A DNA stretch of 64,000 nt from Trypanosoma brucei. Taxonomy: Eukaryota. Shown here one piece after another: positions 14,663-62,184 of the stretch. The translations under genes and the position numbers were made by a program. Under the pieces are notes generated by a model. The model saw only the letters and a program-made list of their open reading frames with translations, did not search any database and was not told the DNA's origin. Numbering within the stretch: position 1 is the stretch's first letter; each line of letters opens with the position of its first letter. Location of the stretch: assembly GCA_000002445.1 (NCBI GenBank), contig CH464491.1, positions 2,464,001 to 2,528,000 of the forward strand, given 5' to 3'.

Positions 14663-14705
14663 TTTTTTTTTTGCTTCTTCTTTGTTTTGCTACTTTATGC
14701 AATAG
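14663..14705 (+). promoter_or_regulatory. polypyrimidine tract plus AG, a candidate trans-splice acceptor for the 14882 gene
   Basis: A T10 run and the pyrimidine-rich ttgcttcttctttgttttgctactttatgc are followed by the first AG at 14704-14705. Confidence 0.45.
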
Positions 14706-14881
14706 TAGTAATAAGGAAGGGGGTGCTAAAGTTGAAAAGTTTCTTAATCGTGATTCAACAACCAAGCGGAAGCAGAAACACCGCTCAGAGTTGCGAACAA
14801 ACGTGTGCATTCCTAGTGACGAAAGAAAACAAAAGGTTTACATTGGAGAGGCAGCATTGCATATACTTAGAGCAAGAACTC

Positions 14882-26175: not shown

Positions 26176-27009
26176 GGGTGACTCCCCAAGTTTTTGAGAT
26201 TCAGTTTCTGTATACGTTTCGTTTCGGTGTTATCATTCACCATTACTACTGTTTTCTCAACATCAACCCACTGAGCACGGATGTGCATGTGGGGTATTGT
26301 ATGTCTCTGGGCACTGGCAACGACGCAGGGGGAACAAATGTCCGAACTGGCCGGCTGCATATTTGGCAGATTCGGCTCTACTAAAAATGACGCGAAATGC
26401 AAAAAGGGATATACGTTATCTCCGTACTAATCTTTGCGCCTCCTTACGTGGTGTCAGTTATGAAGCTAATCTGCCTACCGCCCCCCCCCTCTTCCATTGA
26501 AACCCCGGTGTATACTTTTCGTTTTCTTTGTACTTTTCCTTTACTTCTTTTGTTTGTATATTTTATAATAAGGAAGTGGCTAACCTGTTGCTTATGGAAG
26601 TCAGTCGCGTTTTGTGCATGCAACATTGTGCTTAAACTTCAAAAACATTAAAGATAAAATAACGCATTGCACATCCTTCTTTTGCTTTTAATATGGTGTT
26701 GCATCTTGCCGACTGTCCGCCAACCTCGTTTTGCGCCACCAGCCTGTTTTCATTCTTCTTTTCTTTTATGTGTGTGTTATACTTCTCATGCGTTGTTAAC
26801 ACCACTGTAGTTTTCCACCTGTAGGAAACGCCAGGTGCGCCACGGCATCCAAAGGGTTACTCAGCAGAAACCTTACAAGGAAGCCAATTGTCTAACACGC
26901 TGCTGTGGAGGTTTCTATCTGCACCATTTTCCATTCATACATATACGTATACCGATTTCTTTACCCGAATATTTATTTTAAAAAAAACCGTACTCGGGCG
27001 GTTCTTGAA

Positions 27010-29586
27010 ATGCTATCCAAGTTATTCCGGTATGACACGAAACTTCAGGGGAAGCAGGAACTCAGTACCGCTGATCACAGGTCGTTACTTGAGCTTAGTA
27101 TGACAGACAACATTACATCCGTAGAGATTCCGCAGTACAGGGTGCGGGGGACGTTTGTTGAGTATGTGATTGAGTGCACAAAACGAAACATGACGTGGCA
27201 GGTGTTTCGGCGTTACCAGCAATTTAAGGCACTTGACCAGAGTCTGAAACAACTATGCTCACGCGGATCCTCAAGGCACTGTGACTACGGGGTCATTCCT
27301 GTCCTCTGCGGTAGCCACTGGACGGAAGTAACTAACCAGTCAATCGACCTCGTAGAAAAACGGCGGAGGCACTTGGAAATTTACCTCCGCCAGTTGCTCG
27401 TCCCGGGGAATGTATTTTATGTTGCTAAAACCGTGATTTACGATTTTCTTCACGATGGCGCGGTTCCTGCGCAGCACCAAAGGAGGGCCATACGACCGCT
27501 AATTGGCTTTGCAACGCCAGACTCGTTGGCAGACCTCCACTTGGAAAACAGGAACGGCGAAGGGAGTGCGAGCCGGTTAGGGGCGGCCTCAACTCTCAAC
27601 GATAAATCGATTTCTATGCTTGGGCCATCTGCTGTTGGTGAAAGTGATCGAGTGGATGATGGTGTCGGGGACGAAGAAGAGGAGCCCTGCAAATCACCTC
27701 CAGGAGAGACCGTAGAGAGCGGTGAGGAATGTGAAGATTTACCATCAGCTGACAACAGTGAAGCTGAGGACGTGCGTGTGCCGCCACCAGGCTCCTTGTG
27801 CAGGCAATGTAACGCTGAGTTTTCTTCTGTGCTGTATCCGCATCGTTGTTTCTTCTGTAGGCAACAGTTTTGTCGCGACTGTTTGCACCCAGTCGAACTT
27901 GAAGAAGGAGAGGTCGCTAGATCATGTGTTCAATGTTATGAAAACTTTGCTCGAAAGACCTGTAAACCCCAATATCCCCCAACTCCCATGGCTTCAACAC
28001 CAATACTTCAGTGCGCACCTGCTGGTGGTGCGTTGGACCCGTTGAACTTACTCGGTAGTACGTCCCACGTGCGAACAGATGTAACACTTTCTGACTTTAA
28101 GTTAGTTACAACTGTGGGACGTGGCACGTTTGGCAAAGTGATGAAAGTTATCTTTCGTGAAGATGGCAAGGTTTATGCTATGAAAGTGCTCAACAAGTGT
28201 GTTATTCACAAGCGGCGAATGATCGAGTACATCAGGGAGGAGAAGAATATCATGTCCTCTTTACCCTCGCATCCGTACATTGTAACATGTCACTTCGCAT
28301 TTCAGACTGACTACCATCTTTTCTTCGTACTGGACTACCTCCCTGGTGGAGACATGCACTCGCGTGTTTACCCTAAACTCAAACTAACTGAATCGGATGT
28401 CCGTTTGTATATTGCTGAACTTGTACTCGCACTCCAACATCTGCACCGTCACGACATTGCCCATCGTGACGTCAAGCTCGAAAACATTGTCTTGGGAGAA
28501 GACGGACATCTTAAACTGACAGATTTTGGGCTGGCACGCATGAATTTCTCACGGCAACGCCGTCGCAGTTTTGTGGGGAGTCCGGAGTACCTTCCGCCAG
28601 AAACGATTCAGGGGAAGTACCAAACGAAGGCTGTGGATTGGTGGAGTGCGGGGGTCATGCTGTACGAAATGCTGAGTGGGAAGACGCCGTTTTACTCGGC
28701 GTACAATTGTGAAATCTACAACAATGTGTTGAAGGCGGAGTTGGACCTCACAGCCCCGTGTTTCACGCCAGAGGCCGCCTCACTCATTGAACAACTGCTT
28801 CAAAGCCATCCAAAAGCAAGGTTGCAAGACGCAGGGGCAATAAAGGCTCATCCTTACTTTGCATCAATCGATTGGGCTGCTCTCGAAGGTAAAAAAATAT
28901 CTGCCCCCATACAGCTTGATCTTATGGGAAATGATATGAAATACATCAAATGGAAGTTCACGGCGGAGTGGGCTGTTATATACAAACCTCCTGGAGTGAC
29001 ACGTGCTACAATTGACCTTTTGATTAATCGCTTTAGTAACTTTGCTCATGTGAGCGAGGGGACGCCGCCCACGCCGCATCTGCCGATAGGGCAGCAGCAG
29101 GAAGAGGTATCTGACGGAGTGACAAACCCACCGGATATAACCGGCGTTTGGAATGTTGTCAAGGTAGAGATGCAAACGGAGGATGGAAAGATCACGCATC
29201 CTTGGGGAAGTGCAGTGTGTGGAGTGCTAGCGTACTTCCCAGAGGGTCAGTTCAGCATGCAGCTTACATCATATATGCGTCCACATTTGCGGCAACAGTT
29301 CGTGGATCGTGCCGTGAGAGAGGATCTGGTAGAAATGTGCAACTCGTACGCGGGCAGTTTCGGAAAGTATCAGATCAAGCCAGGGAGCAATATCATTACT
29401 CACAGGCTTCACGGCTGCCTCTGTCCGAATCTTACAGGAAGTACACAAAAGTATTTTTTTGAGGTTCGTGAGAGGAAAGAAAATGGGGCTAAAGTGTTGA
29501 AACTTTTTACCGCGTGTAACGCGCTCCCAGGTGAAGACATCTCCGCACAAACCGTCCTCACATGGGAACGGACGGGTTCCTGCTAA
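27010..29586 (+). CDS. AGC-family Ser/Thr protein kinase with N-terminal PX and FYVE-like domains and a C-terminal lipocalin-like domain (about 858 aa)
   Basis: The track start at 26905 is GTG; the first ATG is 27010. PX domain: YRVRGTFVEYVIEC...WQVFRRYQQFKALDQSL...RRRHLEIYLRQLL. FYVE-like Cys pattern: CRQCNAEF...HRCFFCRQQFCRDC...CVQCYENF. Kinase motifs are intact: GRGTFGKV, YAMKVL, HRDVKLENIVL, DFGLAR, GSPEYLPPE. C-terminal domain: GVWNVVKVEMQTEDGKITHPWGSAVCGVLAYFPEGQFSMQL...YAGSFGKYQIKPGSNIITHRLHGCLCPNLTGSTQKYFFEV. Confidence 0.85.
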   Translation: MLSKLFRYDTKLQGKQELSTADHRSLLELSMTDNITSVEIPQYRVRGTFVEYVIECTKRNMTWQVFRRYQQFKALDQSLKQLCSRGSSRHCDYGVIPVLCGSHWTEVTNQSIDLVEKRRRHLEIYLRQLLVPGNVFYVAKTVIYDFLHDGAVPAQHQRRAIRPLIGFATPDSLADLHLENRNGEGSASRLGAASTLNDKSISMLGPSAVGESDRVDDGVGDEEEEPCKSPPGETVESGEECEDLPSADNSEAEDVRVPPPGSLCRQCNAEFSSVLYPHRCFFCRQQFCRDCLHPVELEEGEVARSCVQCYENFARKTCKPQYPPTPMASTPILQCAPAGGALDPLNLLGSTSHVRTDVTLSDFKLVTTVGRGTFGKVMKVIFREDGKVYAMKVLNKCVIHKRRMIEYIREEKNIMSSLPSHPYIVTCHFAFQTDYHLFFVLDYLPGGDMHSRVYPKLKLTESDVRLYIAELVLALQHLHRHDIAHRDVKLENIVLGEDGHLKLTDFGLARMNFSRQRRRSFVGSPEYLPPETIQGKYQTKAVDWWSAGVMLYEMLSGKTPFYSAYNCEIYNNVLKAELDLTAPCFTPEAASLIEQLLQSHPKARLQDAGAIKAHPYFASIDWAALEGKKISAPIQLDLMGNDMKYIKWKFTAEWAVIYKPPGVTRATIDLLINRFSNFAHVSEGTPPTPHLPIGQQQEEVSDGVTNPPDITGVWNVVKVEMQTEDGKITHPWGSAVCGVLAYFPEGQFSMQLTSYMRPHLRQQFVDRAVREDLVEMCNSYAGSFGKYQIKPGSNIITHRLHGCLCPNLTGSTQKYFFEVRERKENGAKVLKLFTACNALPGEDISAQTVLTWERTGSC

Positions 29587-48155: not shown

Positions 48156-49202
48156 ATGGAGTGGGTTCCGTGCACCGAGCAGACGGGGTCGGTGGGCTGC
48201 CGCGAGGGGCACTGCGCAACCTCTCTTCAAGAAAAAAGTACTGGAGAAGAATGGGTTTTGGTTGTTGGGGGATATTGCGAAGGGGAGCGCGACGGCGCGG
48301 TTATGGCAGCGCGAGCAGATGGACTGCCGATGCTACGATGGGTTCGGCTGGATAAGCCCAACATGACGTGGTTCGAATGTGATGGGGCTTCGCTAACGCA
48401 CGTAACTGGCGACACCGCCTACTTCTTTGGTGGATTAAACGAGCACATGAATCACAGTAATCAGTTACTCTGTCTTTCCCTGCATCAGGGGCAACAGGGT
48501 GATCTTTCCCTCGATGTGGTGAAGGTAGAGACAACAGGAGACGTCCCTCTTCCGCGCGCGAGGCATTCAGCTGGTAGTGCCGGGCGGTATTTCGTTGTGT
48601 TCGGTGGTGAAACGGAAGATGCTGAACAAAATAATGACGGATACATCCTGGACACCGACACAATGGTATGGACACGAATTCCAACAGGGCACCAGGTGCC
48701 CAATCCACGACTTCTCGCCGGCCCTCTTGTGTTCTACTCACCCCACGGGTGCATACTTTACGGTGGGGCACACTTTGTGAACGGCGATATAAGGAGTATG
48801 TCTGACGTGTGGAACCTGCACATCCCGCTGGGAGGCACATGGTTTAACGTTTCCTATGGGGACGGCGCCCCCGCCTGTCGCTTCCCGAGGTCGAATGGTC
48901 ACGCCGGTGGCGTTCTGGGGCGGGTTGGGGGAGAAACTGTAGTGTTGTTTGTTGGAGGAAAGGATGCCGCTGAGGGGTGTGACAGAGTAAAACAGGTGCA
49001 GCCTCCGAAATCTGCTGAAGACAAATTCCATCTTCGTCTGGTAGACCCCGTGTTGGCTGGTGGTGAGGGCCCGCACTGGCGGTACACACCAGCAGCGGTA
49101 GATACACGACGTGGCGTATTGCTTTTGGGTGGTCAGTGCCGTCATCCACAGGAGGTTGCTGCCTTCCTACTAAAGCAGACGGGTGTTACTTTGCAACGGT
49201 AA
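48156..49202 (+). CDS. kelch-repeat (galactose-oxidase-type beta-propeller) protein, 348 aa
   Basis: ATG ORF. It has repeated blades with GG doublets and conserved Trp/Tyr: WVLVVGGYCEG, AYFFGGLNEH, YFVVFGGETED...MVWTRIP, CILYGGAHF, VVLFVGGKD, VLLLGGQC. Confidence 0.8.
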   Translation: MEWVPCTEQTGSVGCREGHCATSLQEKSTGEEWVLVVGGYCEGERDGAVMAARADGLPMLRWVRLDKPNMTWFECDGASLTHVTGDTAYFFGGLNEHMNHSNQLLCLSLHQGQQGDLSLDVVKVETTGDVPLPRARHSAGSAGRYFVVFGGETEDAEQNNDGYILDTDTMVWTRIPTGHQVPNPRLLAGPLVFYSPHGCILYGGAHFVNGDIRSMSDVWNLHIPLGGTWFNVSYGDGAPACRFPRSNGHAGGVLGRVGGETVVLFVGGKDAAEGCDRVKQVQPPKSAEDKFHLRLVDPVLAGGEGPHWRYTPAAVDTRRGVLLLGGQCRHPQEVAAFLLKQTGVTLQR

Positions 49203-49537
49203 CAAATAATCAACAAGGTGGAATCAGTGGAGACAATTTGGAGAGATAGTGCAGTACTGCGCCCTACTGAATTCGGGGTTGTTTCGTTATTATCGTTTAC
49301 GTTTCGTACGCATTTCTTGTTTGTCTTCGCTTTTTTTGGATATGCGTGATGTGGCGCGTCGTTTTCACACAGCCTTTTTCCCTAATGTTAGCCCTCCAAA
49401 CCCTCACCCCCTCAATCTGAAGAAAAAGAGAGGGGCTTTCGTATCCTCAGGACTCGACCGCAAGTATGTCTTTAATTTTTTTTTGTATCATCCCTCATCC
49501 GTTCACCCGCACAAAGTGTTCCAAGGTGTCGATCATC

Positions 49538-50731
49538 ATGCAGATGTTGGCCCCTGGTGCTTTCTTCAACGCATTAAAGGTCCGGGGGGTTACACACTTT
49601 TTTGGAGTTCCTGACCCCATTCTAAAATATTTCTGTGCCTTCGTGGCAAGTCACACGACACCGAAGGAACACATCATCACAGCAAACGAAGGGAATGCAG
49701 TGGCCATGGCTGCAGGTTACCATCTTGCAACTGGGGGACTCCCTTTGGTGTACATGAAAAACAGTGGCTTAGGCGATGCACTCAATCCCCTGATCTCTCT
49801 CACACACGCTGAGGCGTGCAGCATTCCCATGTTTATAGTCGTTGGTTGGCGAGGAGCTCCTGATGCTGGAAATGAGCTACCGTGTGCCGCAGAAGGGCGC
49901 TTGACCGAAGGAATCCTACGTGCTGCTGAGGTCCCGTATATCATTTTATCTTCTGCTTGTGGAAACGGGGAGCAGTCGATGGAAACAGCTCTGGATATGG
50001 CACTGAAGCACGTGCATAATTCAAGGACGCCCTATGCCTTTTTGGTACCACCAAACTTTTTTGAGGAATGCGCTTACGAAGGGGTTGGAGAAGGTATTGC
50101 TGAGCTTCCCATGACTCGCAGGGAGGCGGTTGAACAAGCACTGCGCCAAATAGACCGGGGAGATATAGTTGTGGGCGCCGCAAGCTTCCTTGCTCGTGAA
50201 ATCTTTGAAGTTCAGGAGTGTGCCGGGATGCGACACGGCCCACAATTCTTCCCAGTCGGCAGCATGGGTCATTGTTCTTCCGTAGCAGCGGGTATAGCAT
50301 TGGCCAAACCAGAAAGGCAAGTGTTTTGCTTTGATGGAGATGGCGCATTCCTTATGCACATGGGTTCATCAGCAACCATCGGCGGTGTAGCCGCCATACA
50401 TTTAATAGGTACGGGCGAAACTTCCCTCATGCGCAACTACAAACATGTCGTTTTCAACAACGGATCCCACGATTCGGCAGGTGGTCAACCCACTGTGTCT
50501 TTTGATGTATCCCTCACGCAAGTGGCGAGTGCGTGTGGTTTTAGGACTGTCCGCGAAGAACCCGTAATGGACCTTGGCGAAACTGTGCGGGCCCTTCAGG
50601 AATTAAAGAAGGCGGAAGGGCCCGCGTTCTTGGAAGTATTTGTGCGAAGGGGCGGCCATTCAAACCCACAATGTGAACTTCCCTCTTTAGATGAGAGCAA
50701 ACAAGCTCTCACTAACTGCTTGAGGGGCTAG
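49538..50731 (+). CDS. thiamine-diphosphate enzyme, phosphonopyruvate decarboxylase-like (about 397 aa)
   Basis: The first ATG at 49466 lies in pyrimidine-rich sequence, and homology begins at ATG 49538 (MQMLAPGAFFNALKVRGVTHFFGVPDPILKYF). ANEGNAVAMAAGYHLATGGLPLVYMKNSGLGDALNPLISL is collinear with bacterial Ppd/AepY as recalled. The C-terminal ThDP motif is GDGAFLMHMGS...NNGSHDSAGGQP. Confidence 0.8.
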   Translation: MQMLAPGAFFNALKVRGVTHFFGVPDPILKYFCAFVASHTTPKEHIITANEGNAVAMAAGYHLATGGLPLVYMKNSGLGDALNPLISLTHAEACSIPMFIVVGWRGAPDAGNELPCAAEGRLTEGILRAAEVPYIILSSACGNGEQSMETALDMALKHVHNSRTPYAFLVPPNFFEECAYEGVGEGIAELPMTRREAVEQALRQIDRGDIVVGAASFLAREIFEVQECAGMRHGPQFFPVGSMGHCSSVAAGIALAKPERQVFCFDGDGAFLMHMGSSATIGGVAAIHLIGTGETSLMRNYKHVVFNNGSHDSAGGQPTVSFDVSLTQVASACGFRTVREEPVMDLGETVRALQELKKAEGPAFLEVFVRRGGHSNPQCELPSLDESKQALTNCLRG

Positions 50732-51132: not shown

Positions 51133-52605
51133 ATGTTAAGGCGTACAATTTTCCTGGGAAGGGTAACCCGCTCTTGGACCAAAGGATCTATAGTTAAGGC
51201 ATCGGCCCATTTCCCAGATTCTGTGAGGGCTGATCCCGCAGAAAGACGTAATGAAGACTCGTCTCCGAAGGAAAGCCGCACATGGTCTCTTCATGACGGC
51301 CCGTGCAGCGAACCTCTTCACGTTCCCAAACATATTCAATGGGCAACACAGAAGGTGAGAGTTTGGGGGCAACTAATGCGAGTGGATAAGGCTGCTGCAA
51401 TAAACCTCCTGCTTCAACCTTGTTACTGGGGAGCCAGTCTAGCAGTAACTCGGGCCATCGTCTGGGAGGGGGCGGATCCTGTCGTTTTGTTCGCTCCTTT
51501 CATTCCCGTACATTTGATCGTCCTGTTCGGCGCTGGTGCCTTTTTGGCTCGGGGTGCGGGTTGTATTATTAACGACATGTGTGACAGAAAGTTCGACCGA
51601 ATGGTAGAACGCACCAAAACACGGCCGCTTGCTAGCGGTGTTGTCAGCATGAAGGAGGCATCAGGCCTTCTCATAACAGTAGCTGGTTTTGCGCTTGTTA
51701 TTGCACTAAACCTGTCGCCCATGGCACTTGCTTCGGCGGTAGCGTTAGCTCCCATCGCGGCAGTTTATCCGCTCATGAAGCGTATAACCTACATGCCTCA
51801 GCTCGTTCTGGGACTTTGCTTCAACGGCGGCATTTTTGTTGGGTATGCTGCCGTGCTAAACCGCATTGATTTGGCCGTTACGCTTCCTATCTACTGCTCA
51901 GCCGTCGTGTGGACAGTTTTGTATGATACCATCTATGCGTACCAAGACAGGGCGGACGACCTGAAATGCGGTGTGAAGAGCTCGGCTATTCTTATTGGTG
52001 ACAGGAAGCATATTCTCACTTTCATGATACTCCCCATCGGCATGGGTATTCTTATTTCGGGATTGATGGTCTCACAGTCGCTTCCGTTTTACATCGGTGT
52101 CCTCTGTTGCGTTTGGTACCTTCAGGGTGTCGTTGATAACGTCAACATATACGATGCGTGGTCATGTGGTATGGGATTCCGCAGGAACGTACGATTTGCC
52201 ATCCTGGTTACTTTTTCTCTCTGCCTTGGAAACGTGTTGTGGGCACTCGCATCTGAGCACCAACCGGAAAAGGACGCCGCGAGCAACGCCATATCGGAAA
52301 AGTCGGCCTTGATGAAATTCCTTCTTTTGAATAAGGAAGCGGAACCCATGTCGTACAGCGTGCAAGATATTCGTTGGGTAGACCGTTTTGCGCATCCGGC
52401 ATTCGTGGCAGCGCAGAAGGCTCAACACGAGGGAGAGGAAAAAACGGTGGTGGTGCCGGCGTGGATGCGGCGTGAGTACCTGGGTGAGAATGTAGGGACT
52501 ATCATGCGCTTTTTTGGCGTTGACGAGGAAGCAATCCAAACTTGGCAAAAGTGGTGGTACGCGCAACTTGACCACTACAACATGTTCTCCAGCATCGCCG
52601 TTTAG
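51133..52605 (+). CDS. COQ2: 4-hydroxybenzoate polyprenyltransferase (COQ2, UbiA family) with a C-terminal extension (about 490 aa)
   Basis: The track start at 51001 is GTG; the first ATG is 51133 (MLRRTIFLGRVTRSW, presequence-like). UbiA Asp-rich motifs NDMCDRKFDRMVERTKTRPLASG and YAYQDRADD. There are multiple hydrophobic helices, followed by about 120 aa of soluble Trp-rich tail. Confidence 0.88.
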   Translation: MLRRTIFLGRVTRSWTKGSIVKASAHFPDSVRADPAERRNEDSSPKESRTWSLHDGPCSEPLHVPKHIQWATQKVRVWGQLMRVDKAAAINLLLQPCYWGASLAVTRAIVWEGADPVVLFAPFIPVHLIVLFGAGAFLARGAGCIINDMCDRKFDRMVERTKTRPLASGVVSMKEASGLLITVAGFALVIALNLSPMALASAVALAPIAAVYPLMKRITYMPQLVLGLCFNGGIFVGYAAVLNRIDLAVTLPIYCSAVVWTVLYDTIYAYQDRADDLKCGVKSSAILIGDRKHILTFMILPIGMGILISGLMVSQSLPFYIGVLCCVWYLQGVVDNVNIYDAWSCGMGFRRNVRFAILVTFSLCLGNVLWALASEHQPEKDAASNAISEKSALMKFLLLNKEAEPMSYSVQDIRWVDRFAHPAFVAAQKAQHEGEEKTVVVPAWMRREYLGENVGTIMRFFGVDEEAIQTWQKWWYAQLDHYNMFSSIAV

Positions 52606-55294: not shown

Positions 55295-56293
55295 GGTTTA
55301 CTCTCTTTTGTTATTCACTAGAAGGATATGTGTAGTATATATTTCCCTATGTGAGTCGCTTATTTGCATACCGGTGAAGCGGTTCCTTATGGTGTCAGCG
55401 CCGATGCAGCAACACACGCCAAGACGACACCGCTCTGGTCGCTGGTGCTTTTTTTTTTTTTACTTCTATTTTTCTTTGCCCTCTGCGGCTACCAAAGGAG
55501 CCATCACAATTAGCAAAGGTAGAACTTAGTTGGCCGTACGGCGGGAAAGGTTGTGTGGTAGAATTGGTGTTGAATGTCCGGTGTTTTTCCAATATGTACG
55601 ATGCCGCGCAGAGGCGCAGTGAACCAGCAAAACTGTGGGGGACAAAAAGGAATATACTGATCTGCAAAAGGTCTCGGCTGACGTTTTACCACTTTTTGTG
55701 TACGGATGCGCCGAGACCGAGGTTGCAGTAAAACGTGGCACATAGGGAAAACGACAAAGAGCAATGCGAGCAGCCCCAATTGCAGGTCGCAGGCGCTCTA
55801 AGAAATAAAAGGAAGAGAATAGTGAGCAAGGCAATTCGGAAGCGTGGACCGGCGGGAAGTGCTCCGCGAGGAAAAAAAAATAAAGGCACGACTCAACAAA
55901 TCCACCTAAAAGTGCGGAGGAGAGCAGGATGGAATACATCAACTGCAACATTTATGGAACACAACACCAAGTCCAATTGCTTCCTGAAACAATTTTTTGG
56001 CGCTTGTGTAGAAAAGTGGAGCTGGAGCGGTGGAAACTCGCATGTGACTACATACTGCGATAAGTCATTAGTGAAAGGGAATTTGGGGTGGAGAGTGCAT
56101 ATGGGCAAAAATAGGTTTCCACAACAATTAAACACAAGATTGTTGATTGTTAGCAGTCGTCGCACTACCCGCTTGTGTGCAACAACTTGGCTGTGATATG
56201 GAAATGCTGTGAGCCGACGAGGTCGGGGGAGCGGATGCCAGTTTGGGGGGGCGAATCCCTTTCTTGATTTCCTCTGCCTGGCGCAAGAATGCA

Positions 56294-56313
56294 CCCCCCC
56301 CCCAAAAAAAAAA
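56294..56313. repeat. C10A10 homopolymer pair
   Basis: Direct count: C at 56294-56303 and A at 56304-56313. Confidence 0.95.
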
Positions 56314-56459
56314 GAAAACAGCTGGGGAAGCCGAGAAACACCACTGCCCAGGAGAGTATCAACGAGAAAGACAATCTCGCAAGGTTTAAATCCGACTAAT
56401 AACATTGTTGACAGCAACCCCTTTCTGATGTTCAGCAATTGTAATGTGTCTCTCGGCCC

Positions 56460-56474
56460 GGGGGGGGGGGGGGG
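56460..56474. repeat. G15 homopolymer at the skew switch point of the strand-switch region
   Basis: Direct count. Confidence 0.95.
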
Positions 56475-58008
56475 AATCCTCTCCGGCACAATTGCACCAT
56501 GCCTTTTCCAACTCGAGCTCACGCTTCATCGGTAATATGGGAATGGGAAGAGGGTAGTTTGTCAGTAACCTTTCGTGCGACTTTGCTAGCATGTACTCCA
56601 CTTTCCCCTCCACACGTGTGGATATTTTCCCCCAGTTTGAGAACCCTTTCAACGGGCTTTTCCCCTAAGTCCCGGGCGTTACACCCCCACTCCCATGATG
56701 AGCCGTTTTGAGACTTCGCCACGAGACCGCCGGTATAACTCTGCGGTGAGGAGTTCATTATTTTCTTTTGTCCTGCGTCGCCGACGCAACCTCCACGATA
56801 AGAAGAAACCCCCGCTTTCCGCGAATGGGCCACTCACGTCAGTTGTCCACCCTCGCGCGAGGAACCACTTACCAGACGAAGTGAACTTAACAACCACCCT
56901 CGTACGATCTTGTTTTTGTATAAATATTGCCCCTCTTCCCGCACGCAGCTGCGCCAGCTACAGTCCGCGGTGCTCGGAACAAACCGTTTCTCGCTTTTTC
57001 CCGCATCCCTTTACTTTCCGCGCAAGCGCGATCCGAGGACACAATGCACGACTCCAGCTCCGACGATGCACCCACCATTTCCTAGAAACCCCTCCGACAA
57101 TGAATTCCTCACGAAACGCGTCATCTTAGTTCACGAGTCCAAAAACGAGAGATAAGGACAAAAATAATCTTGCAAAAGAGTGAGATGTTACTCAGGTTTG
57201 CACCAACATAAATTGCAGCCACACAGATGGGAAGGGAAGATAAGGGCGTGCGCACGCACGCATTAGTTGGATTCGAACAAACGAACATCCCGTTGATCAA
57301 GCACAATGCACTGACGAAATGGGCTGGCGAGACCGGGCTACTCATCCGCCCACTGCGAGCCGAAGGCAGTTGTCGATAATAGCAGGCACCATTTCGCACG
57401 TAAATTCATTACACAAACACGCAAGCAGTTCCTTCATTTGTTTTGGGTTCCAAGACAGCGCAACCCCGCCGCATTTTGCCCAATTCCCATACCCGCACGC
57501 ACGCACGTGCCACTCCCCGGGAAAAAGTTGGGTCAAGATAACTTTTGCCGAGCGCCTGACGTGTGAACTCGAATCTCCAACATGGTACCTGGAACACTGC
57601 AGTGAGCCGCTAGCGCCACAGTTATTTTCGTTGGGTACATCCCAACTGCTGTGGGAAACACTGCAACCCCGTCCTGTCCCGCGAACTGTCGCCCTAAACA
57701 TGTAGAACCCGTGGCATTTCCACTCCAATGCCGCACCCAATCGGTGATATCTTTCCCGCATTCCATGCGGATGTCAAGTTCATTCGCAAGAGATGCGCCT
57801 TCAAGCCAGCACGCCAACCCCTAGCCCACCATACGACCAAAGACACGGCATTCGCGTGGCTGCATTCAGTGGCGCGTACTCGCAAAACTGCAATGTGTTC
57901 GTAGATTTGTCAACAAAGTGAAAAAAAAATAATAATAATACACTCAATCCCATCATTTGAGTGAACGTGTGCAGTCACTAATTGCCGGTGCGACATACAA
58001 AACAAACC

Positions 58009-58806
58009 TTATTCAAGTTCGCAAAGGATGCTTCGCTCCCAGCTTCCATCGATCGACAAGTCAACAAGCTCCGTGTTAACAACACTCTCCTGCTGCTGCA
58101 TACTCAAAAGAAAATGATGGAGCAAGCGAGGTGCGATAACGTGGGGAGTCGGCTCTGCCCCGCTCAATCCTCGTAGCCGGAGTTCCTCCACTAAAGACGT
58201 CGCTGCTTCGTTCGGCATCTCGCACATAACGATATCGTTGAAGTAAAGCAGATTATTACTCACATTCAGTCCCGCACCATGCATAGAGACCCAATTCCCC
58301 AGTTGAAGCCCGACGAACCCCATCTTTCGTGGTGCCACATCTCCCCAACTGTCGGACCAAACCCCAACCCTCCCTCGATGGGCGGGGATGTTGTATTCGC
58401 CCGCTACGTTAATCATAGCCTGTTCCAACACGGAACTAAACCACTCAATTGGGGAACGTGGTTTGTCAGAAGCCGTGCATTGCTTCCACAGAACCTGCAC
58501 GTTAACAATGGGGTACATAGTTACCTGCCCTGGTCCATGGAATGTGACGCCCCCTCCCCTCCTCGTCTTGACCACCTCGGCGGCACAACCCGCTTTGATG
58601 CCATTGGAAGTGTCTCGCCTGCCAATCGTGTAAACAGGAGACGAATGTTCCACAAGCAAAACAACGTTGGGGATGAGGCGAGCAGATTTGTCTCCACGAA
58701 TGTAGCGCATCTGCCTATCGATTTTCTTTCGAAAAATTGCCTCTTGCAGCCGCAGAACATCGTGGTAACGACGGCTTCCAAGGTTATACGCCCGCATTCC
58801 ATTCAT
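58009..58806 (-). CDS. LIPB: lipoyl(octanoyl) transferase LipB, 265 aa
   Basis: ATG ORF on the - strand. It carries the LipB signature RRGGGVTFHGPGQVTMYPIV, a downstream RKMGFVGLQL (lysine region), and the overall LipB length. Confidence 0.85.
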   Translation of the reverse strand: MNGMRAYNLGSRRYHDVLRLQEAIFRKKIDRQMRYIRGDKSARLIPNVVLLVEHSSPVYTIGRRDTSNGIKAGCAAEVVKTRRGGGVTFHGPGQVTMYPIVNVQVLWKQCTASDKPRSPIEWFSSVLEQAMINVAGEYNIPAHRGRVGVWSDSWGDVAPRKMGFVGLQLGNWVSMHGAGLNVSNNLLYFNDIVMCEMPNEAATSLVEELRLRGLSGAEPTPHVIAPRLLHHFLLSMQQQESVVNTELVDLSIDGSWERSILCELE

Positions 58807-59142: not shown

Positions 59143-61806
59143 TCAATCCCTGCTTCCTTCACTGCCTCGCCCACTGATATCCTCAGTTCCTGACCTTTTC
59201 ATCGCTTCACTGGCTTGGTCACTGCCAATCTCCTCAGCATCTACTTTTGCTGCTTCACTGGTTTGCTTACTCTCCGTGTCCTCGGTGTCTGGATCTTTTG
59301 CTGCTTCGCTTGTTCTCTCACTCGCACCTTCTGTACCAGACCTTTTCATCGCTTCACTGGCTTGGTCACTGCCAATCTCCTCAGCATCTACTTTTGCTGC
59401 TTCACTGGTTTGTTTACTCTCCGTGTCATCGTTGTCTGGATCTTTTGCTGCTTCGCTCGTTTTCTCATTCGCATCCTCTGTATCAGATGGCTTCCGCGCT
59501 TCACTTGTCCATTCACTGTCAATCTCCTCAGTGTCCGCCTCTTTTGCTGTTTCGCTTATCTGTTTACTGCCAATCTCCTCAGTCTCCGCCTCTTTTGCCG
59601 CACCACTCGCCTCGTTGCCTTCAATATCCCCGGTATCTGGATCTTTTGCTGCTTCACTGGCTTGTTTACTGCCAATCTCCTCAGCATCTTCTTCTTTTGC
59701 TGCTTCGCTCGTTTTCTCATTCGCATCCTCCGTATCAGATGGTTTCCCCGCCTCACATGACTGCTCGTCCCCAAACTGTTCATCGGCATATTCTTCATTG
59801 GCAACCTCCTGTGCGGCGCCTTCCTCATCCGCATTGGCACCTCCATCGGCAACAGCGTCCTCAGCAGCGACAGTGTCTTGCGCAATAGGAGGTTCTGTGA
59901 CTTGCCCCTCCTCAACCTCAACGTCACCTTCTCCACCAGCCCCATTCTCAACTGCAGAACGGGAGTGTTGGCTTGTGGAACCCTCGTGCAAACGCGAGGC
60001 GCTACCACCGGGGGCGCCCTCAGCGTGTTCACCCTTTGGAGCCTCAACACCACTGGTACTTCTCATACGCCCAACTGAAGAGGCGGAAGGAGGTGCCCCT
60101 GAGCCACCAAAGTTGTTTTGAGTTGCAACGGATGGCAGGGACAGCTCATGTCCCAGTCCGAGGGAACGTTCGTAGAGGGCAATTATGTCGGCTGAGGCGG
60201 ACAGTTTATCTTCATCTTCGCAGATTCGTTTAGCGTATGGTTCGAGTACTTGCCTGAATTGTTCATCCCCAACATTCTCAACAAACTCCAGCACAAGATG
60301 ATTATCTGACGCCTCTTTCACGTTGAATTTCGTGAACCACGGGGTTAAAACAGTGAACACTCCATTTTCGCCCGTTTCTTCAAGTTGGATCACGTTGGGA
60401 ATCCCACAAATCTCCACCTTAAAGGCAGCCTCCGTTTCTCCACTCGAAGAGAGTCGGCTGAGAGGCGGTAAAACAACTTGGCCTCCTTCCTTGGCGTTCT
60501 CGATCTGGTTCACTTGGCCGGCCTCATCACAACAATAATAAAACGGTTTAGCGTCAGTCACTTCTGACGTGCAGTGGCAGATGACTGTATATGCGAGTGT
60601 GGGGTAGTTTTTGAGTAGCGTACCCCCTGCCAACTCATCCGCCAATTCCTGCCGCACTCCAGTAAGTTCCTCAAGTTTGTCACCGTTGCATGATATCAGG
60701 AGTTGAGCCAGTTTAGCGTAAGCAATGCTTCCAGACGGATATTTCTCTGCCGCAGCGTGACACATAATGTGAATATTTTCCGCAGCGACGTTGCAACCGC
60801 TCAGATAAGCTTCCACAGTGGGTAAATCGGCGACAAGAGCCAGAGCGTCCTCCGCATCCTTCTCCGCCTCCTCACATGACATGAGAACGAACCGGCTGTT
60901 ACCCGAGCCATCCGGCTGTATTGCCAAGACTCGATGCCATATCTCCGGTTTCCATTCTGTACGGGCATCGCAGTGGGAACTGAGCACATTGACGAAGCTC
61001 CCAGTTAGTGCGGTGTCGTCTGCGGGCTGGTCCCCAGACGCCTTGCGTTTGCCGCTATCAGCGGGTGTTTCTTCGCTCTTGCTCAAGAAAGGGAAGACGT
61101 TGATAAAAGCCGTCTCTATCGCCTGACCGGCAGTCCACTTGTCGAGTGCACTGACGCTTACTTTATCACCATCAACACCGATAACCTCCGCAAGAGTACT
61201 CTCCTCTTTAGCAGAGAGAGGCCTGGCCGTCCCGACGTGCTCAAGTATGGCACGCATAAAGGACTCCCAGAAGACTTCAGACTCCCCTTCACCAAAGTAA
61301 CGCCCCCAAAAGTCAAGCAATGGCTTGCTTTCCGTGCACTCCTTGGCGGGTTTTTGGGAGCGGCACAGCTCAATAACGTAATTGATTATCTTGGGTGTGT
61401 TAATGCCCTCTATAGAGGTACGTTTCCTGCCTTCTTTAAAAAATACAAAGTAAGACTTCGATTTTCCGCGCCGGCTCTCAAGGATATCCTTCCAGAACGG
61501 TGCCAAGGATTCTCGAAACTTTACCTTGTCATCTGTTTTCATGTGCTGATGGTGCTCCTCTGTCTGGTCAATGCTCTCGAGAATGGAGTTGCACTCCACG
61601 GAGAGAAAACGAAGATACGCCTGATCAGAAGCGTCCATTTGCAAGCGCCTAAAGGTCTCAGACAGCGCCTTGCTAAGTCCCCACTCGGAACTGTACACAT
61701 CTAGTACCGCCACCCCATGTTGCTCATGTATAAGCCGAAGCTCCTGCTCCAGTTTCACGGCATTTGTGATGTCCTGTACAATTTCTGTGCGGTTTTGCTG
61801 TTGCAT
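59143..61806 (-). CDS. hypothetical protein with a thioredoxin-like N-terminal segment (no CxxC) and an acidic repetitive C-terminus (about 887 aa)
   Basis: The track start at 61824 is TTG; the first ATG is 61806 (MQQQNRTEIV). VAVLDVYSSEWGLSKALSETFRRL resembles a thioredoxin-fold strand-helix but lacks the redox Cys pair. The C-terminal 200 aa are SEAAK/DTE/EEIGS repeats. Confidence 0.7.
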   Translation of the reverse strand: MQQQNRTEIVQDITNAVKLEQELRLIHEQHGVAVLDVYSSEWGLSKALSETFRRLQMDASDQAYLRFLSVECNSILESIDQTEEHHQHMKTDDKVKFRESLAPFWKDILESRRGKSKSYFVFFKEGRKRTSIEGINTPKIINYVIELCRSQKPAKECTESKPLLDFWGRYFGEGESEVFWESFMRAILEHVGTARPLSAKEESTLAEVIGVDGDKVSVSALDKWTAGQAIETAFINVFPFLSKSEETPADSGKRKASGDQPADDTALTGSFVNVLSSHCDARTEWKPEIWHRVLAIQPDGSGNSRFVLMSCEEAEKDAEDALALVADLPTVEAYLSGCNVAAENIHIMCHAAAEKYPSGSIAYAKLAQLLISCNGDKLEELTGVRQELADELAGGTLLKNYPTLAYTVICHCTSEVTDAKPFYYCCDEAGQVNQIENAKEGGQVVLPPLSRLSSSGETEAAFKVEICGIPNVIQLEETGENGVFTVLTPWFTKFNVKEASDNHLVLEFVENVGDEQFRQVLEPYAKRICEDEDKLSASADIIALYERSLGLGHELSLPSVATQNNFGGSGAPPSASSVGRMRSTSGVEAPKGEHAEGAPGGSASRLHEGSTSQHSRSAVENGAGGEGDVEVEEGQVTEPPIAQDTVAAEDAVADGGANADEEGAAQEVANEEYADEQFGDEQSCEAGKPSDTEDANEKTSEAAKEEDAEEIGSKQASEAAKDPDTGDIEGNEASGAAKEAETEEIGSKQISETAKEADTEEIDSEWTSEARKPSDTEDANEKTSEAAKDPDNDDTESKQTSEAAKVDAEEIGSDQASEAMKRSGTEGASERTSEAAKDPDTEDTESKQTSEAAKVDAEEIGSDQASEAMKRSGTEDISGRGSEGSRD
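59192..59747 (-). repeat. coding tandem repeat: two 147-bp units (59192-59338, 59339-59485) plus degenerate related copies to about 59747
   Basis: Direct comparison of the two units shows only a handful of substitutions. The encoded 49-aa unit is SEAAKDPDxxDTESKQTSEAAKVDAEEIGSDQASEAMKRSGTE... Confidence 0.9.
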
Positions 61807-62184
61807 TACCACGCAGTAAAACAAGACACTTATAAGTCAACTGCAGTAAACCTTCTAAGCACTGCACCGTGGAGGGATGTGCGTCGAAGAATTGCGGGGG
61901 AAACGGTAGGAAAGAGATAGTCGAAAGGGGTTGCGGAACATGATAAGCACAGAAAGAATACTGAAATCGGCATTTTTTTGTCAGAGGGGAAAGGAAAAAG
62001 AAAAAGAAAATTTCCCTCCCAGACACATGGAAGATAACTAAATAATACTGATAACAACGAGACACACAACGCACAGTAATCACCAGCGTTTTTCTTCCTT
62101 CCCTTGGCATGGTTCGGTTCCACCCCACATAGATTTCGCATTCAATAAAAGAAAAAAAGAAAACATCATCAATCTTTCCCCCTC

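What the first reader, a model, noticed from the sequence alone, without database searches (positions are those of the whole stretch)
49538..50731. Bacterial-type phosphonopyruvate decarboxylase-like ThDP enzyme without pathway partners in the window
The protein is collinear with bacterial Ppd/AepY (GVPDxxLK, ANEGNAVAMAAGYxLATG, NSGLGxxxNPLxSL, GDG...NN ThDP motif). Ppd normally acts immediately after PEP mutase in 2-aminoethylphosphonate (AEP) synthesis. AEP-containing glycoconjugates and a PEP mutase are known from T. cruzi, but to my knowledge not from African trypanosomes. No PEP mutase or AEP transaminase gene is present in these 64 kb. There is also an insert (IHLIGTGETSLMRN) inside the ThDP-binding motif. 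Depending on the species, this is either the dispersed second step of a phosphonate pathway, probably of horizontal origin, or an orphan enzyme with a different 2-oxoacid substrate.
Basis: partly seen in the sequence, partly recalled or inferred. Interest (0 to 1): 0.5.

Follow-up and report, generated by a model that had tools for sequence, protein, structure and literature searches.

The report
Orphaned, remodelled phosphonopyruvate decarboxylase gene
This Trypanosoma brucei gene descends from the second enzyme of the aminoethylphosphonate pathway, but the parasite lacks the first enzyme, and the protein has kept its thiamine-cofactor core while losing about a quarter of the residues that all true family members share, so it probably no longer does its ancestral job.

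Summary
Window 49538..50731 (+) is an intact 397-codon gene of Trypanosoma brucei brucei TREU927, already annotated as 'phosphonopyruvate decarboxylase-like protein, putative'. It just passes the NCBIfam Ppd equivalog model (329 bits, cut-off 312.5). It lies in the helicase-Kelch-Ppd gene order shared across kinetoplastids. No PEP mutase or aminotransferase lies in the 64 kb, and papers report that T. brucei has neither PEP mutase nor AEP.

It has replaced 26 of 94 family-invariant residues, against 1-2 in five other Trypanosoma species. It evolves 3-5 times faster than they do, while its flanking genes show little or no such acceleration. T. vivax has no copy at the syntenic site.

The changes spare the ThDP-binding core and concentrate in three segments. 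Trypanosomatid lineages reported or presumed to lack PEP mutase changed many of the same positions. The 'insert' in the ThDP motif is shared by all kinetoplastid homologues examined, T. cruzi included.

Best reading: an orphaned Ppd orthologue that still binds ThDP but no longer recognises phosphonopyruvate. It has either been recruited to another 2-oxoacid or is slowly decaying. The gene and its orphan status are on record; the remodelling pattern is, as far as I could find, new. Interest is moderate.

The parts
49538..50731 (+). Coding sequence of the Ppd-like ThDP protein (397 codons plus TAG stop).
   Evidence: ORF. 100% match to the T. b. brucei TREU927 'phosphonopyruvate decarboxylase-like protein, putative'. 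TIGR03297 scores 329 bits. AF2 model has pLDDT 89.9 and pTM 0.89. Its two halves match RhiE and RhiF of PDB 9iz4.
49466..49537 (+). 24-codon N-terminal extension used in the TREU927 annotation (421 aa). It is probably 5' flank: a polypyrimidine tract followed by AG, that is, a trans-splice acceptor region.
   Evidence: Sequence read. T. b. gambiense and T. equiperdum are annotated at 397 aa. Orthologues start at the position aligned with 49538. The splice-site reading is an inference and was not tested.
49682..49735 (+). PYR-domain motif ANEGNAVAMAAGYHLATG, with the cofactor-activating Glu51 (codon 49688..49690). Conserved.
   Evidence: None of the 15 genus-conserved columns in residues 41-60 is changed.
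49868..49885 (+). Degenerate loop GNELPC, replacing the family motif K-D-E-P-Q-H (D112N, P114L, Q115P, H116C).
   Evidence: D and H of this motif are also kept in the split Ppd RhiE. pLDDT falls to 74 here.
50177..50215 (+). Start of the PP domain, AASFLAREIFEVQ, replacing T-T-G-x-x-S-R-E-x-x-E-x-R (T214A, T215A, G216S, S219A, R226Q).
   Evidence: RhiF keeps T-x-G-x-x-S-R and the last R. Sixteen of 29 genus-conserved columns in residues 201-240 are changed.
50255..50494 (+). ThDP diphosphate-binding core: VGSMGH, GDG(37)NN and HDSAGGQPT. Conserved. It includes the kinetoplastid-wide 12-residue insert (50396..50437).
   Evidence: Only 2 of 29 family-invariant columns in residues 240-319 are changed, against 24 of 65 elsewhere (Fisher p=0.0024). 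Insert distribution.
50657..50689 (+). Degenerate C-terminal segment HSNPQCELPSL, replacing R-x-x-L-G-R-P-x-x-x-P (R374H, L377P, G378Q, R379C, P380E, P384L).
   Evidence: pLDDT is 73.
48156..49202 (+). Upstream Kelch-repeat gene, used as a synteny anchor.
   Evidence: Pfam. Kelch lies immediately upstream of Ppd in L. braziliensis, Leptomonas, L. tarentolae and environmental kinetoplastid-like contigs.
51133..52605 (+). Downstream 4-hydroxybenzoate polyprenyltransferase (COQ2/UbiA) gene, used as a synteny anchor.
   Evidence: Pfam and homologues. In T. vivax, Kelch and COQ2 are only 541 bp apart with no Ppd between them.

Best explanation
This is the positional orthologue of the kinetoplastid phosphonopyruvate decarboxylase (Ppd), the second enzyme of 2-aminoethylphosphonate (AEP) synthesis. 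It was left behind after African trypanosomes lost the first enzyme, PEP mutase.

The protein keeps the two-domain PYR+PP fold and the parts that bind and activate thiamine diphosphate: Glu51, VGSMGH, GDG...NN and GGQPT. It has replaced the residues that every working Ppd shares in three segments: the DEPQH loop, the TTGxxSRExxExR segment and the C-terminal RxxLGRP segment. Three invariant Arg and one invariant His are among the losses. By analogy with other ThDP decarboxylases, these segments should line the substrate pocket.

I therefore think it no longer recognises the phosphonate substrate and takes no part in AEP synthesis. Most likely it still binds ThDP-Mg2+ and decarboxylates, or otherwise processes, a 2-oxoacid that has no phosphonate group, under weaker selection than before.

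Shown here: identity, synteny, accelerated evolution, which residues are lost and kept, and loss from the syntenic site in T. vivax.
Taken from papers: absence of PEP mutase and AEP from T. brucei.
Inferred: that the lost residues bind the phosphonate, that ThDP is still bound, and that a new substrate exists.
For: Family and fold:
- TIGR03297 scores 329 bits, just above the 312.5 cut-off.
- The AF2 model has pLDDT 89.9. Its halves match RhiE and RhiF of 9iz4 with TM 0.85 and 0.84.

Orthology by gene order:
- The Kelch, Ppd and COQ2 homologues lie on one contig in T. grayi. Two of the three are seen sharing a contig in T. theileri (Ppd, COQ2) and in T. melophagium (Ppd, Kelch) (contig sizes).
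- In L. braziliensis, Leptomonas and L. tarentolae the order is helicase-Kelch-Ppd, with an inverted pair of genes between helicase and Kelch in Leptomonas.
- Two metagenome contigs show Kelch directly upstream of Ppd, one of them with the DEAD_2 helicase upstream of Kelch.

Derived state:
- 26 of 94 columns that are at least 95% conserved in 113 non-trypanosomatid homologues are changed in T. brucei. The figure is 1-2 in T. theileri, T. grayi, T. melophagium, T. cruzi and T. rangeli.
- TIGR03297 scores 444-452 bits in those species.
- Relative-rate test: 83-86 unique changes in T. brucei against 17-25 in the others (p from 2e-8 to 2e-11). Kelch shows no acceleration, and COQ2 only a mild and inconsistent one.

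Residual constraint:
- The changes are strongly uneven. The ThDP core, residues 240-319, has 2 of 29 invariant columns changed, against 24 of 65 elsewhere (p=0.0024).
- The ORF is intact in the T. b. brucei and T. b. gambiense genomes, one T. equiperdum assembly and one Logan contig of unknown strain.
- In a neutral simulation without indels, only 4.6% of ORFs stay free of stops after 85 amino-acid changes.

Convergence:
- The positions changed in T. brucei overlap those changed in Leishmaniinae (17 observed, 10.7 expected, p=0.004), in the unknown trypanosomatid P0012 (12 against 5.1, p=0.0002) and in Strigomonas (15 against 9.8, p=0.015).
- The Leishmaniinae copies are under purifying selection, with dN/dS 0.16, equal to the neighbouring Kelch gene.

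Pathway context:
- No PEP mutase or aminotransferase in the window.
- Papers report that PEP mutase, AEP and phosphonolipids are absent from T. brucei (PMC5648825 and PMC2784872).
Against: - T. vivax has no copy at the syntenic site and no trace of one in 21 kb. The gene is therefore dispensable in at least one salivarian trypanosome.
- Family-invariant columns were replaced about as often as columns conserved only within the genus (25 of 93 against 60 of 172, p=0.22). General relaxation would give this result.
- T. b. brucei and T. b. gambiense differ by 5 non-synonymous and 2 synonymous changes. One T. b. equiperdum assembly carries a 1-bp deletion in the gene. Both fit weak constraint, though the counts are too small to test and the deletion may be an assembly error.
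- No residue-level structure was available, so the link between the lost residues and the phosphonate pocket is an inference.
- I could not search the T. brucei genome for PEP mutase myself.
- I found no expression or phenotype data for this gene.
Confidence: 0.55

Rival explanations
1. Decaying relic. After PEP mutase was lost the gene lost all function and is drifting. It has not yet acquired a disabling mutation in most T. brucei strains.
For: - T. vivax has no copy at the syntenic site.
- Family-invariant sites are replaced as often as other conserved sites.
- There are 5 non-synonymous against 2 synonymous differences between T. b. brucei and T. b. gambiense.
- One T. b. equiperdum assembly has a 1-bp deletion.
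- In the no-indel simulation, 4.6% of ORFs stay open, which is not negligible.
Against: - Changes avoid the cofactor-binding core (2 of 29 against 24 of 65, p=0.0024; none of the 15 genus-conserved columns in residues 41-60 is changed).
- There is only a one-residue length difference from other Trypanosoma (397 against 398 aa) and no frameshift in the T. b. brucei, T. b. gambiense, T. equiperdum and Logan copies.
- The same positions change in the Leishmaniinae copies, which are clearly under selection (dN/dS 0.16).
- The AF2 model is confident.
Confidence: 0.3
2. Working Ppd in a dispersed AEP pathway. PEP mutase and the transaminase would lie elsewhere in the genome.
For: - The TIGR03297 equivalog score is above the cut-off.
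- The catalytic Glu and the ThDP motif are intact.
- In T. cruzi the pathway works (PMC5648825).
Against: - Papers report that PEP mutase, AEP and phosphonolipids are absent from T. brucei, and AEP-ceramide appears only when AEP is fed.
- 26 of 94 invariant residues are lost, including H116, R226, R374 and R379.
- The score is about 120 bits below those of other Trypanosoma.
Confidence: 0.05
3. Non-catalytic protein. The fold, and perhaps ThDP binding, are kept for a structural, sensing or regulatory role, as may be the case in Leishmaniinae.
For: - Leishmaniinae orthologues have replaced the cofactor-activating Glu with Cys or Ser, yet show dN/dS 0.16.
- GDG, N307, H303, Q317 and T319 are kept in all orphan lineages.
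Against: - T. brucei keeps Glu51 and the whole ANEGNA motif.
- Loss of that Glu does not by itself prove inactivity. Glyoxylate carboligase works without it (my own knowledge, not tested here).
- No interaction or localisation data were found.
Confidence: 0.1

Closest known systems
Phosphonopyruvate decarboxylase (Ppd/AepY/Fom2/BcpC; EC 4.1.1.82; TIGR03297), for example the Bacteroides fragilis enzyme and the T. cruzi orthologue
   Same: - About 380-400 aa with a two-domain PYR+PP architecture and no middle domain.
- Catalytic Glu, VGSMGH, GDG...NN and GGQPT motifs present.
- HMM score above the curated cut-off.
- Same chromosomal position as the canonical genes of other Trypanosoma.
   Different: - 26 of 94 family-invariant residues are replaced, clustered in the DEPQH loop, the TTGxxSRExxExR segment and the C-terminal RxxLGRP segment.
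- The HMM score is about 120 bits lower than in other Trypanosoma.
- The evolutionary rate is 3-5 times higher.
- Papers report no PEP mutase in this organism.
Split phosphonopyruvate decarboxylase RhiE/RhiF of Bacillus subtilis (PDB 9iz3, 9iz4)
   Same: Closest solved structure. The N half matches RhiE (TM 0.85) and the C half matches RhiF (TM 0.84).
   Different: - RhiEF has two chains; this protein is a fusion.
- RhiE keeps the D and H of the DEPQH loop. RhiF keeps T-x-G-x-x-S-R and the last R. T. brucei has lost these apart from R220.
- RhiF lacks the kinetoplastid insert.
Ppd-like proteins of trypanosomatids reported or presumed to lack PEP mutase (Leishmania LmjF.28.1580 and orthologues, Leptomonas, Strigomonas)
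   Same: - Same gene neighbourhood in the Leishmaniinae, with Kelch immediately upstream. The Strigomonas contigs are too short to tell.
- Same kinetoplastid insert.
- Many of the same family-invariant positions are changed (S27, N80, V93, Q115, H116, T214, T215, S219, V314, R374, L377, R379, P380, P384).
- GDG...N is kept.
   Different: - They are more derived: 35-43 invariant columns changed, and TIGR03297 scores of 233-268 bits, below the cut-off.
- Leishmaniinae have also lost the activating Glu, which T. brucei keeps.
- Several carry a short basic N-terminal extension that Trypanosoma copies lack.
Sulfopyruvate decarboxylase ComDE (TIGR03845/TIGR03846)
   Same: Same two-domain ThDP fold class, and next-best HMM hits.
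   Different: Scores of 82 and 65 bits are far below the cut-offs of 221.5 and 148. ComDE is a two-subunit enzyme of coenzyme M synthesis.

Membership tests
Phosphonopyruvate decarboxylase (TIGR03297, EC 4.1.1.82) | Score at or above the curated equivalog cut-off of the family HMM | tested here: met
   329 bits against a cut-off of 312.5, so the pass is marginal. Other Trypanosoma score 444-452, a Clostridium enzyme 521, Strigomonas 268 and Leishmaniinae 233-252.
Phosphonopyruvate decarboxylase (TIGR03297, EC 4.1.1.82) | Two-domain PYR+PP ThDP fold without a middle (TH3) domain | tested here: met
   Pfam TPP_enzyme_N covers residues 8-111 and TPP_enzyme_C residues 236-367. The AF2 model (pLDDT 89.9) matches RhiE and RhiF of 9iz4.
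Phosphonopyruvate decarboxylase (TIGR03297, EC 4.1.1.82) | Cofactor machinery: activating Glu and the GDG-X-NN diphosphate/Mg2+ motif | tested here: met
   E51, G267-D268-G269 and N307-N308 are present. The spacing is 37 rather than 25, as in all kinetoplastid homologues examined.
Phosphonopyruvate decarboxylase (TIGR03297, EC 4.1.1.82) | Residues invariant across the family (94 columns at least 95% conserved in 113 homologues) | tested here: not met
   26 of 94 are replaced, including residues 100% conserved in the reference set: N80D, H116C, G216S and R226Q. R374H and R379C (98-99% conserved) are also replaced. Other Trypanosoma replace 1-2. The median among the 113 reference sequences is 1 and the maximum is 16.
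Phosphonopyruvate decarboxylase (TIGR03297, EC 4.1.1.82) | PEP mutase present in the same genome to supply the substrate | not testable with these tools
   None in the 64-kb window. Papers report PEP mutase and AEP absent from T. brucei (PMC5648825 and PMC2784872).
Phosphonopyruvate decarboxylase (TIGR03297, EC 4.1.1.82) | Catalytic activity on phosphonopyruvate | not testable with these tools
   This needs a recombinant enzyme assay.
Kinetoplastid Ppd orthologue group (positional) | Location downstream of the Kelch gene, and the 35-43-residue GDG-NN spacing | tested here: met
   Kelch lies at 48156..49202 and COQ2 at 51133..52605 in the window. The same neighbours occur in T. b. gambiense, Leishmaniinae and metagenome contigs. 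Spacing.
Sulfopyruvate decarboxylase ComDE (TIGR03845/TIGR03846) | Score at or above the curated cut-offs | tested here: not met
   82 bits against 221.5 for the beta subunit, and 64.8 against 147.95 for the alpha subunit.
Acetolactate synthase / PDC-type three-domain ThDP enzymes | Three-domain architecture of about 550 aa, and family HMM cut-offs | tested here: not met
   The protein is 397 aa with no middle domain. The best ALS model scores 51 bits against a cut-off of 538. Foldseek TM-scores to these structures, normalised to the target, are only 0.23-0.30.

The most novel reading that the evidence does not exclude
Trypanosomatids that lost PEP mutase did not discard Ppd. Instead they remodelled the same substrate-side positions convergently, producing a new ThDP enzyme subfamily. 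In T. brucei this could be the unidentified 2-oxoacid decarboxylase of an Ehrlich-type route from indolepyruvate (or phenylpyruvate) to the indoleacetate and tryptophol that the parasite is reported to produce (review PMC6027508, which names no decarboxylase for this step). Loss of three invariant Arg and one His would fit a switch from a dianionic phosphonate to an uncharged side chain.
Probability: 0.08. Interest if true: 0.75.

Novelty: new variant of a known kind. Interest (0 to 1): 0.4.

Why it matters
The gene itself is not a discovery. It has been annotated as Ppd-like, and one paper credits the 2005 T. brucei genome paper with listing it as a bacterial transfer (PMC7954300). The absence of PEP mutase from T. 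brucei is also in the literature.

What may matter is the pattern found here:
- The enzyme outlived its pathway.
- It keeps its cofactor core.
- It changed many of the same family-invariant positions as Ppd-like proteins in other trypanosomatids reported or presumed to lack PEP mutase.
- T. vivax has no copy at the syntenic site.

This gives a natural experiment on what happens to an orphaned enzyme. It also marks out the residues most likely to recognise the phosphonate in true Ppds. And it warns that 'phosphonopyruvate decarboxylase' annotations in T. brucei and Leishmania, which have been proposed as parasite-specific drug targets, should not be read as evidence of phosphonate metabolism. 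If the protein has a new substrate, it would be an unassigned, parasite-specific ThDP enzyme.

Tried and rejected
1. The insert as a T. brucei peculiarity: rejected. All kinetoplastid homologues examined have it.

2. Kelch and Ppd as a functional gene pair or operon, suggested by their co-occurrence on metagenome contigs: rejected as evidence of a functional link. One such contig also carries the DEAD_2 helicase upstream, in the kinetoplastid gene order, so these contigs look like other kinetoplastids.

3. The T. congolense locus, which would best separate selection from decay: not obtainable. Its Kelch protein is in nr only, with no contig on record. No T. congolense COQ2 or Ppd hit was listed, which may reflect an assembly gap. 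Its state remains unknown.

4. P0012 as a salivarian relative, because a neighbour-joining tree paired it with T. brucei: rejected. Its GC3 is 0.91 against 0.49 in T. brucei, so it comes from an unknown GC-rich trypanosomatid and the pairing is probably long-branch attraction.

5. dN/dS within T. brucei: 5 non-synonymous and 2 synonymous changes, against 6/7 for Kelch and 2/1 for COQ2. The counts are too few to interpret.

6. Midpoint rooting of the neighbour-joining tree put the root among the long orphan branches. I re-rooted on a bacterial sequence. No bootstrap or maximum-likelihood tree was made.

7. A direct search for PEP mutase in T. brucei was not possible. The primary paper (Sarkar et al. 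2003) is not held.

8. Mapping changed residues onto 3-D coordinates was not possible, because model coordinates are not exposed.

9. Literature searches for the T. brucei gene by name or accession found nothing beyond PMC7954300.

10. The absence of T. vivax from the hit list is weak evidence on its own. Only the best 120 hits are shown, and the Leishmania copies were also missing from that list. The T. vivax claim rests on the syntenic locus.
Full report
**What is there**

The window comes from Trypanosoma brucei brucei TREU927. The translated ORF is 100% identical to the protein annotated as 'phosphonopyruvate decarboxylase-like protein, putative', carried on a 5.26-Mb record (accessions).

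The ORF runs 49466..50731 on the + strand. Its N-terminus aligns with the orthologues' MGKLAPE, and T. b. gambiense and T. equiperdum are annotated at that length. A polypyrimidine tract at about 49468-49510 followed by AG suggests that the upstream ATG lies outside the mature mRNA. This is an inference from the usual trypanosome trans-splicing signal.

Pfam finds the N- and C-terminal ThDP domains. The NCBIfam equivalog model for phosphonopyruvate decarboxylase, TIGR03297, scores 329 bits against a cut-off of 312.5. Sulfopyruvate decarboxylase and acetolactate synthase models fall far below their cut-offs.

An AlphaFold2 model built on 87 aligned sequences is confident, with pLDDT 89.9 and pTM 0.89. 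Its two halves match RhiE and RhiF, the split Ppd of B. subtilis (9iz4), with TM-scores of 0.85 and 0.84.

**Surroundings**

I scanned 20 of the 26 ORFs of at least 220 aa against Pfam. The Ppd gene itself had been scanned. The other five ORFs overlap larger scanned ORFs, four of them antisense, and were left out. The window holds kinases, methyltransferases, RPN2, TruD, a DEAD_2 helicase, a Kelch protein, COQ2 and a lipoyl ligase/transferase-family protein. It holds no PEP mutase/isocitrate-lyase fold and no aminotransferase.

The gene is flanked by the Kelch gene (48156..49202) and COQ2 (51133..52605). The evidence that this order is old is as follows.
- The Kelch, Ppd and COQ2 homologues share one contig in T. 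grayi. Two of the three are seen sharing a contig in T. theileri (Ppd, COQ2) and in T. melophagium (Ppd, Kelch) (contig sizes).
- T. b. gambiense has the same arrangement.
- In L. braziliensis, Leptomonas pyrrhocoris and L. tarentolae the Ppd-like gene lies immediately downstream of Kelch. This matches LmjF.28.1590 and LmjF.28.1580 in L. major (PMC7954300).
- Two environmental contigs carrying 46-47%-identical homologues have Kelch directly upstream of Ppd. One of them also has the DEAD_2 helicase upstream of Kelch, all on one strand. They are probably other kinetoplastids.

The gene has therefore been at this locus since before trypanosomatids diversified. Its GC content (0.52) matches the window. 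Whether it originally came from bacteria was not tested. PMC7954300 credits the 2005 genome paper with that view.

In a neighbour-joining tree, the 30 sequences with a lengthened ThDP motif form one clade apart from the prokaryotic sequences. These are kinetoplastids, EukProt transcriptomes and unnamed metagenome sequences. No bootstrap was done.

**The insert**

The GDG-to-NN spacing is 25 in 87 mostly prokaryotic homologues and 30-31 in several EukProt sequences. It is 35-43 in every kinetoplastid homologue examined, including T. cruzi, which makes AEP. The insert is a trait of the clade and is compatible with Ppd function. It says nothing about the T. brucei copy.

**Pathway partners**

I could not search the T. 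brucei genome for PEP mutase. Two papers bear on the question.
- PMC5648825 reports that AEP-ceramide occurs only in stercorarian trypanosomes, that PEP mutase and AEP are absent from T. brucei and Leishmania, and that T. brucei makes traces of AEP-ceramide only when fed AEP.
- PMC2784872 reports that no phosphonolipids were detected in T. brucei, that its AEP biosynthetic enzymes are absent, and that its ethanolamine-phosphate cytidylyltransferase rejects AEP.

Both cite Sarkar et al. 2003, which I could not read.

**How derived the T. brucei copy is**

I aligned 119 homologues. In the 113 that are not named trypanosomatids, 94 columns are at least 95% conserved.

| Sequence | Invariant columns changed (of 94) | TIGR03297 bits |
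|---|---|---|
| T. brucei | 26 | 329 |
| T. theileri, T. grayi, T. cruzi, T. rangeli | 1-2 | 444-452 |
| T. melophagium | 1 | not scored |
| Strigomonas | 34 | 268 |
| 113 reference sequences | median 1, maximum 16 | 521 (the one scored, Clostridium) |

Counts are and scores.

The T. brucei losses include residues 100% conserved in the reference set (N80D, H116C, G216S, R226Q) and also D112N, R374H and R379C.

A Tajima relative-rate test, with a kinetoplastid-like outgroup, gives 83-86 unique changes on the T. brucei side against 17-25 for each other Trypanosoma (p from 2e-8 to 2e-11). The flanking Kelch gene shows no acceleration. COQ2 shows only a mild, inconsistent one. The acceleration therefore belongs to this gene.

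RhiE and RhiF are described in the literature as a working Ppd. They keep the D and H of the DEPQH loop and the T-x-G-x-x-S-R...R segment. T. brucei has lost these apart from R220.

**Decay or new constraint?**

Evidence for relaxation:
- Family-invariant columns changed about as often as columns conserved only within the genus (25 of 93 against 60 of 172, p=0.22).
- T. vivax has just 541 bp between Kelch and COQ2, and no tblastn trace of Ppd in 21 kb.
- T. b. brucei and T. b. gambiense differ by 5 non-synonymous and 2 synonymous changes. That is too few to test against the neighbours (6/7 and 2/1).
- One T. b. equiperdum assembly has a 1-bp deletion in a TTT run. This may be an assembly error.

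Evidence for continuing constraint:
- The changes are very uneven. In residues 41-60 none of the 15 genus-conserved columns is changed. In residues 241-360 the figure is 9 of 72. By contrast it is 9 of 18 in residues 101-120, 16 of 29 in 201-240 and 16 of 26 in 361-397.
- Among family-invariant columns, 2 of 29 are changed in residues 240-319 against 24 of 65 elsewhere (Fisher p=0.0024).
- The reading frame is open in the T. b. brucei and T. b. gambiense genomes, one T. equiperdum assembly and one Logan contig, with only a one-residue length difference from other Trypanosoma.
- In a substitution-only neutral simulation, 4.6% of ORFs remain free of stops after 85 amino-acid changes. Indels would lower that figure further.

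**Convergence**

I fetched the Ppd-like genes of L. braziliensis, L. tarentolae and Leptomonas. They are more derived than the T. brucei copy. They have 41-43 of 96 invariant columns changed, TIGR03297 scores of 233-252 bits, and the activating Glu replaced by Cys or Ser. Even so, their dN/dS is 0.16 at dS 0.64, the same as the neighbouring Kelch gene at 0.17. They are maintained by selection.

The set of columns changed in T. brucei overlaps the sets changed in other lineages more than chance predicts.

| Compared with T. brucei | Overlap observed | Expected | p |
|---|---|---|---|
| All three Leishmaniinae | 17 | 10.7 | 0.004 |
| Strigomonas | 15 | 9.8 | 0.015 |
| P0012 (unknown GC-rich trypanosomatid) | 12 | 5.1 | 0.0002 |

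Other Trypanosoma keep the canonical residues, so the T. brucei changes arose independently of these lineages.

Positions hit in at least three of the four orphan lineages are S27, L28, K30, N80, V93, Q115, H116, F175, T214, T215, S219, I249, D312, V314, R374, L377, R379, P380 and P384.

Kept in all of them are W104-R105-G106, GDG 267-269, N300, H303, N307, G315, Q317 and T319.

Two caveats apply. The absence of PEP mutase is documented only for T. brucei and Leishmania. For Strigomonas, Leptomonas and P0012 I assumed it. Strigomonas, P0012 and the Leishmaniinae may also share history, so they are not independent of each other.

**Mechanism I commit to**

The protein still folds as a PYR+PP ThDP enzyme and keeps Glu51 and the diphosphate/Mg2+ motif, so it probably still binds and activates ThDP.

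The changed segments are the residue after GVPD, the end of NSGLGN, the DEPQH loop, the start of the PP domain and the C-terminal segment. In PDC- and ALS-type enzymes the corresponding elements line the substrate pocket or close over it. This correspondence rests on my general knowledge of ThDP enzymes and was not tested here.

Losing three invariant Arg and one His fits loss of phosphonate binding. I therefore judge that the protein is no longer a phosphonopyruvate decarboxylase in any pathway sense (about 0.85). I put the alternatives as follows:
- about 0.55 that it is still a ThDP enzyme working on another 2-oxoacid under weak constraint;
- about 0.3 that it is a functionless relic;
- about 0.1 that it has a non-catalytic role;
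- about 0.05 that it is a true Ppd.

**Speculative lead**

T. brucei is reported to produce indolepyruvate, indoleacetate and tryptophol (review PMC6027508). Conversion of indolepyruvate to the other two needs a decarboxylation, and that review names no enzyme for the step. An orphan ThDP decarboxylase with an uncharged pocket is a candidate. I put this at under 10%.

**Novelty and score**

I found no report of the extent of remodelling, its gene-specific acceleration, the spared cofactor core, the convergence with other lineages, or the loss from the syntenic site in T. vivax. It is a derived variant of a known family. Interest is 0.4.

Noticed in passing
L001:9459-10001 (T. vivax, GCA_021307395.1): T. 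vivax keeps the order helicase-Kelch-COQ2, but only 541 bp separate Kelch and COQ2. tblastn finds no Ppd remnant anywhere in the 21-kb locus, so the gene looks cleanly lost there.
   Followed up: yes
L007:9362-10609, L009:6654-7943, L008:8743-9999: The Ppd-like genes of L. braziliensis, L. tarentolae and Leptomonas have replaced the cofactor-activating Glu (ANEGNA becomes TNCGNA or TNSGNA) and fall below the TIGR03297 cut-off. Yet dN/dS is 0.16, equal to the neighbouring Kelch gene. They also start with short basic extensions (MLRR..., MMRCCRR...) that could be mitochondrial presequences.
   Followed up: partly
L005:2061-3253 (T. b. equiperdum, GCA_003543875.1): A 1-bp deletion in a TTT run at nt 295 of the CDS shifts the frame, and the protein is annotated as only 250 aa. 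The other T. equiperdum assembly is intact. This may be a real lesion or a long-read homopolymer error.
   Followed up: partly
L010:366-1625 (Logan SRR24540844): An unidentified, very GC-rich (GC3 0.91) trypanosomatid carries a partly derived Ppd-like gene. It has GVPDP as in T. brucei, and DEPQH has become PPPPH. (CA)n and (CT)n repeats flank it. A neighbour-joining tree pairs it with T. brucei, probably through long-branch attraction.
   Followed up: partly
window 49466-49537: The TREU927 annotation starts 24 codons upstream of the start used in T. b. gambiense and T. equiperdum. That stretch is largely a polypyrimidine tract followed by AG, which looks like a trans-splice acceptor rather than coding sequence.
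   Followed up: partly
window 55300-58000: Genes run on the + strand up to about 55.3 kb and on the - strand from about 58 kb (a lipoyl ligase/transferase-family gene at 58009..58806 and an 893-aa ORF at 59143..61824). The GC skew changes sign there. This looks like a convergent strand-switch region. In L. major the Ppd-like gene also lies at a convergent strand-switch region (PMC7954300).
   Followed up: no
window 26905-29586: A protein with an unusual domain combination: PX, a weak FYVE match, a protein kinase domain and a C-terminal lipocalin-like domain (Lipocalin_5, E=6e-46).
   Followed up: no
window 14687-20590: A 1967-aa ORF with no Pfam hit. It lies in the stretch with the strongest GC and AT skews of the window (16-20 kb, GC up to 0.557). 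It may be a repetitive or low-complexity protein.
   Followed up: no
L006:1624-4542 and the unnamed 8221-bp contig: Environmental metagenome contigs carry Kelch directly upstream of Ppd on one strand with short spacers, and one also has the DEAD_2 helicase upstream. They probably come from free-living kinetoplastids with a canonical Ppd. They show that this gene order is old.
   Followed up: partly
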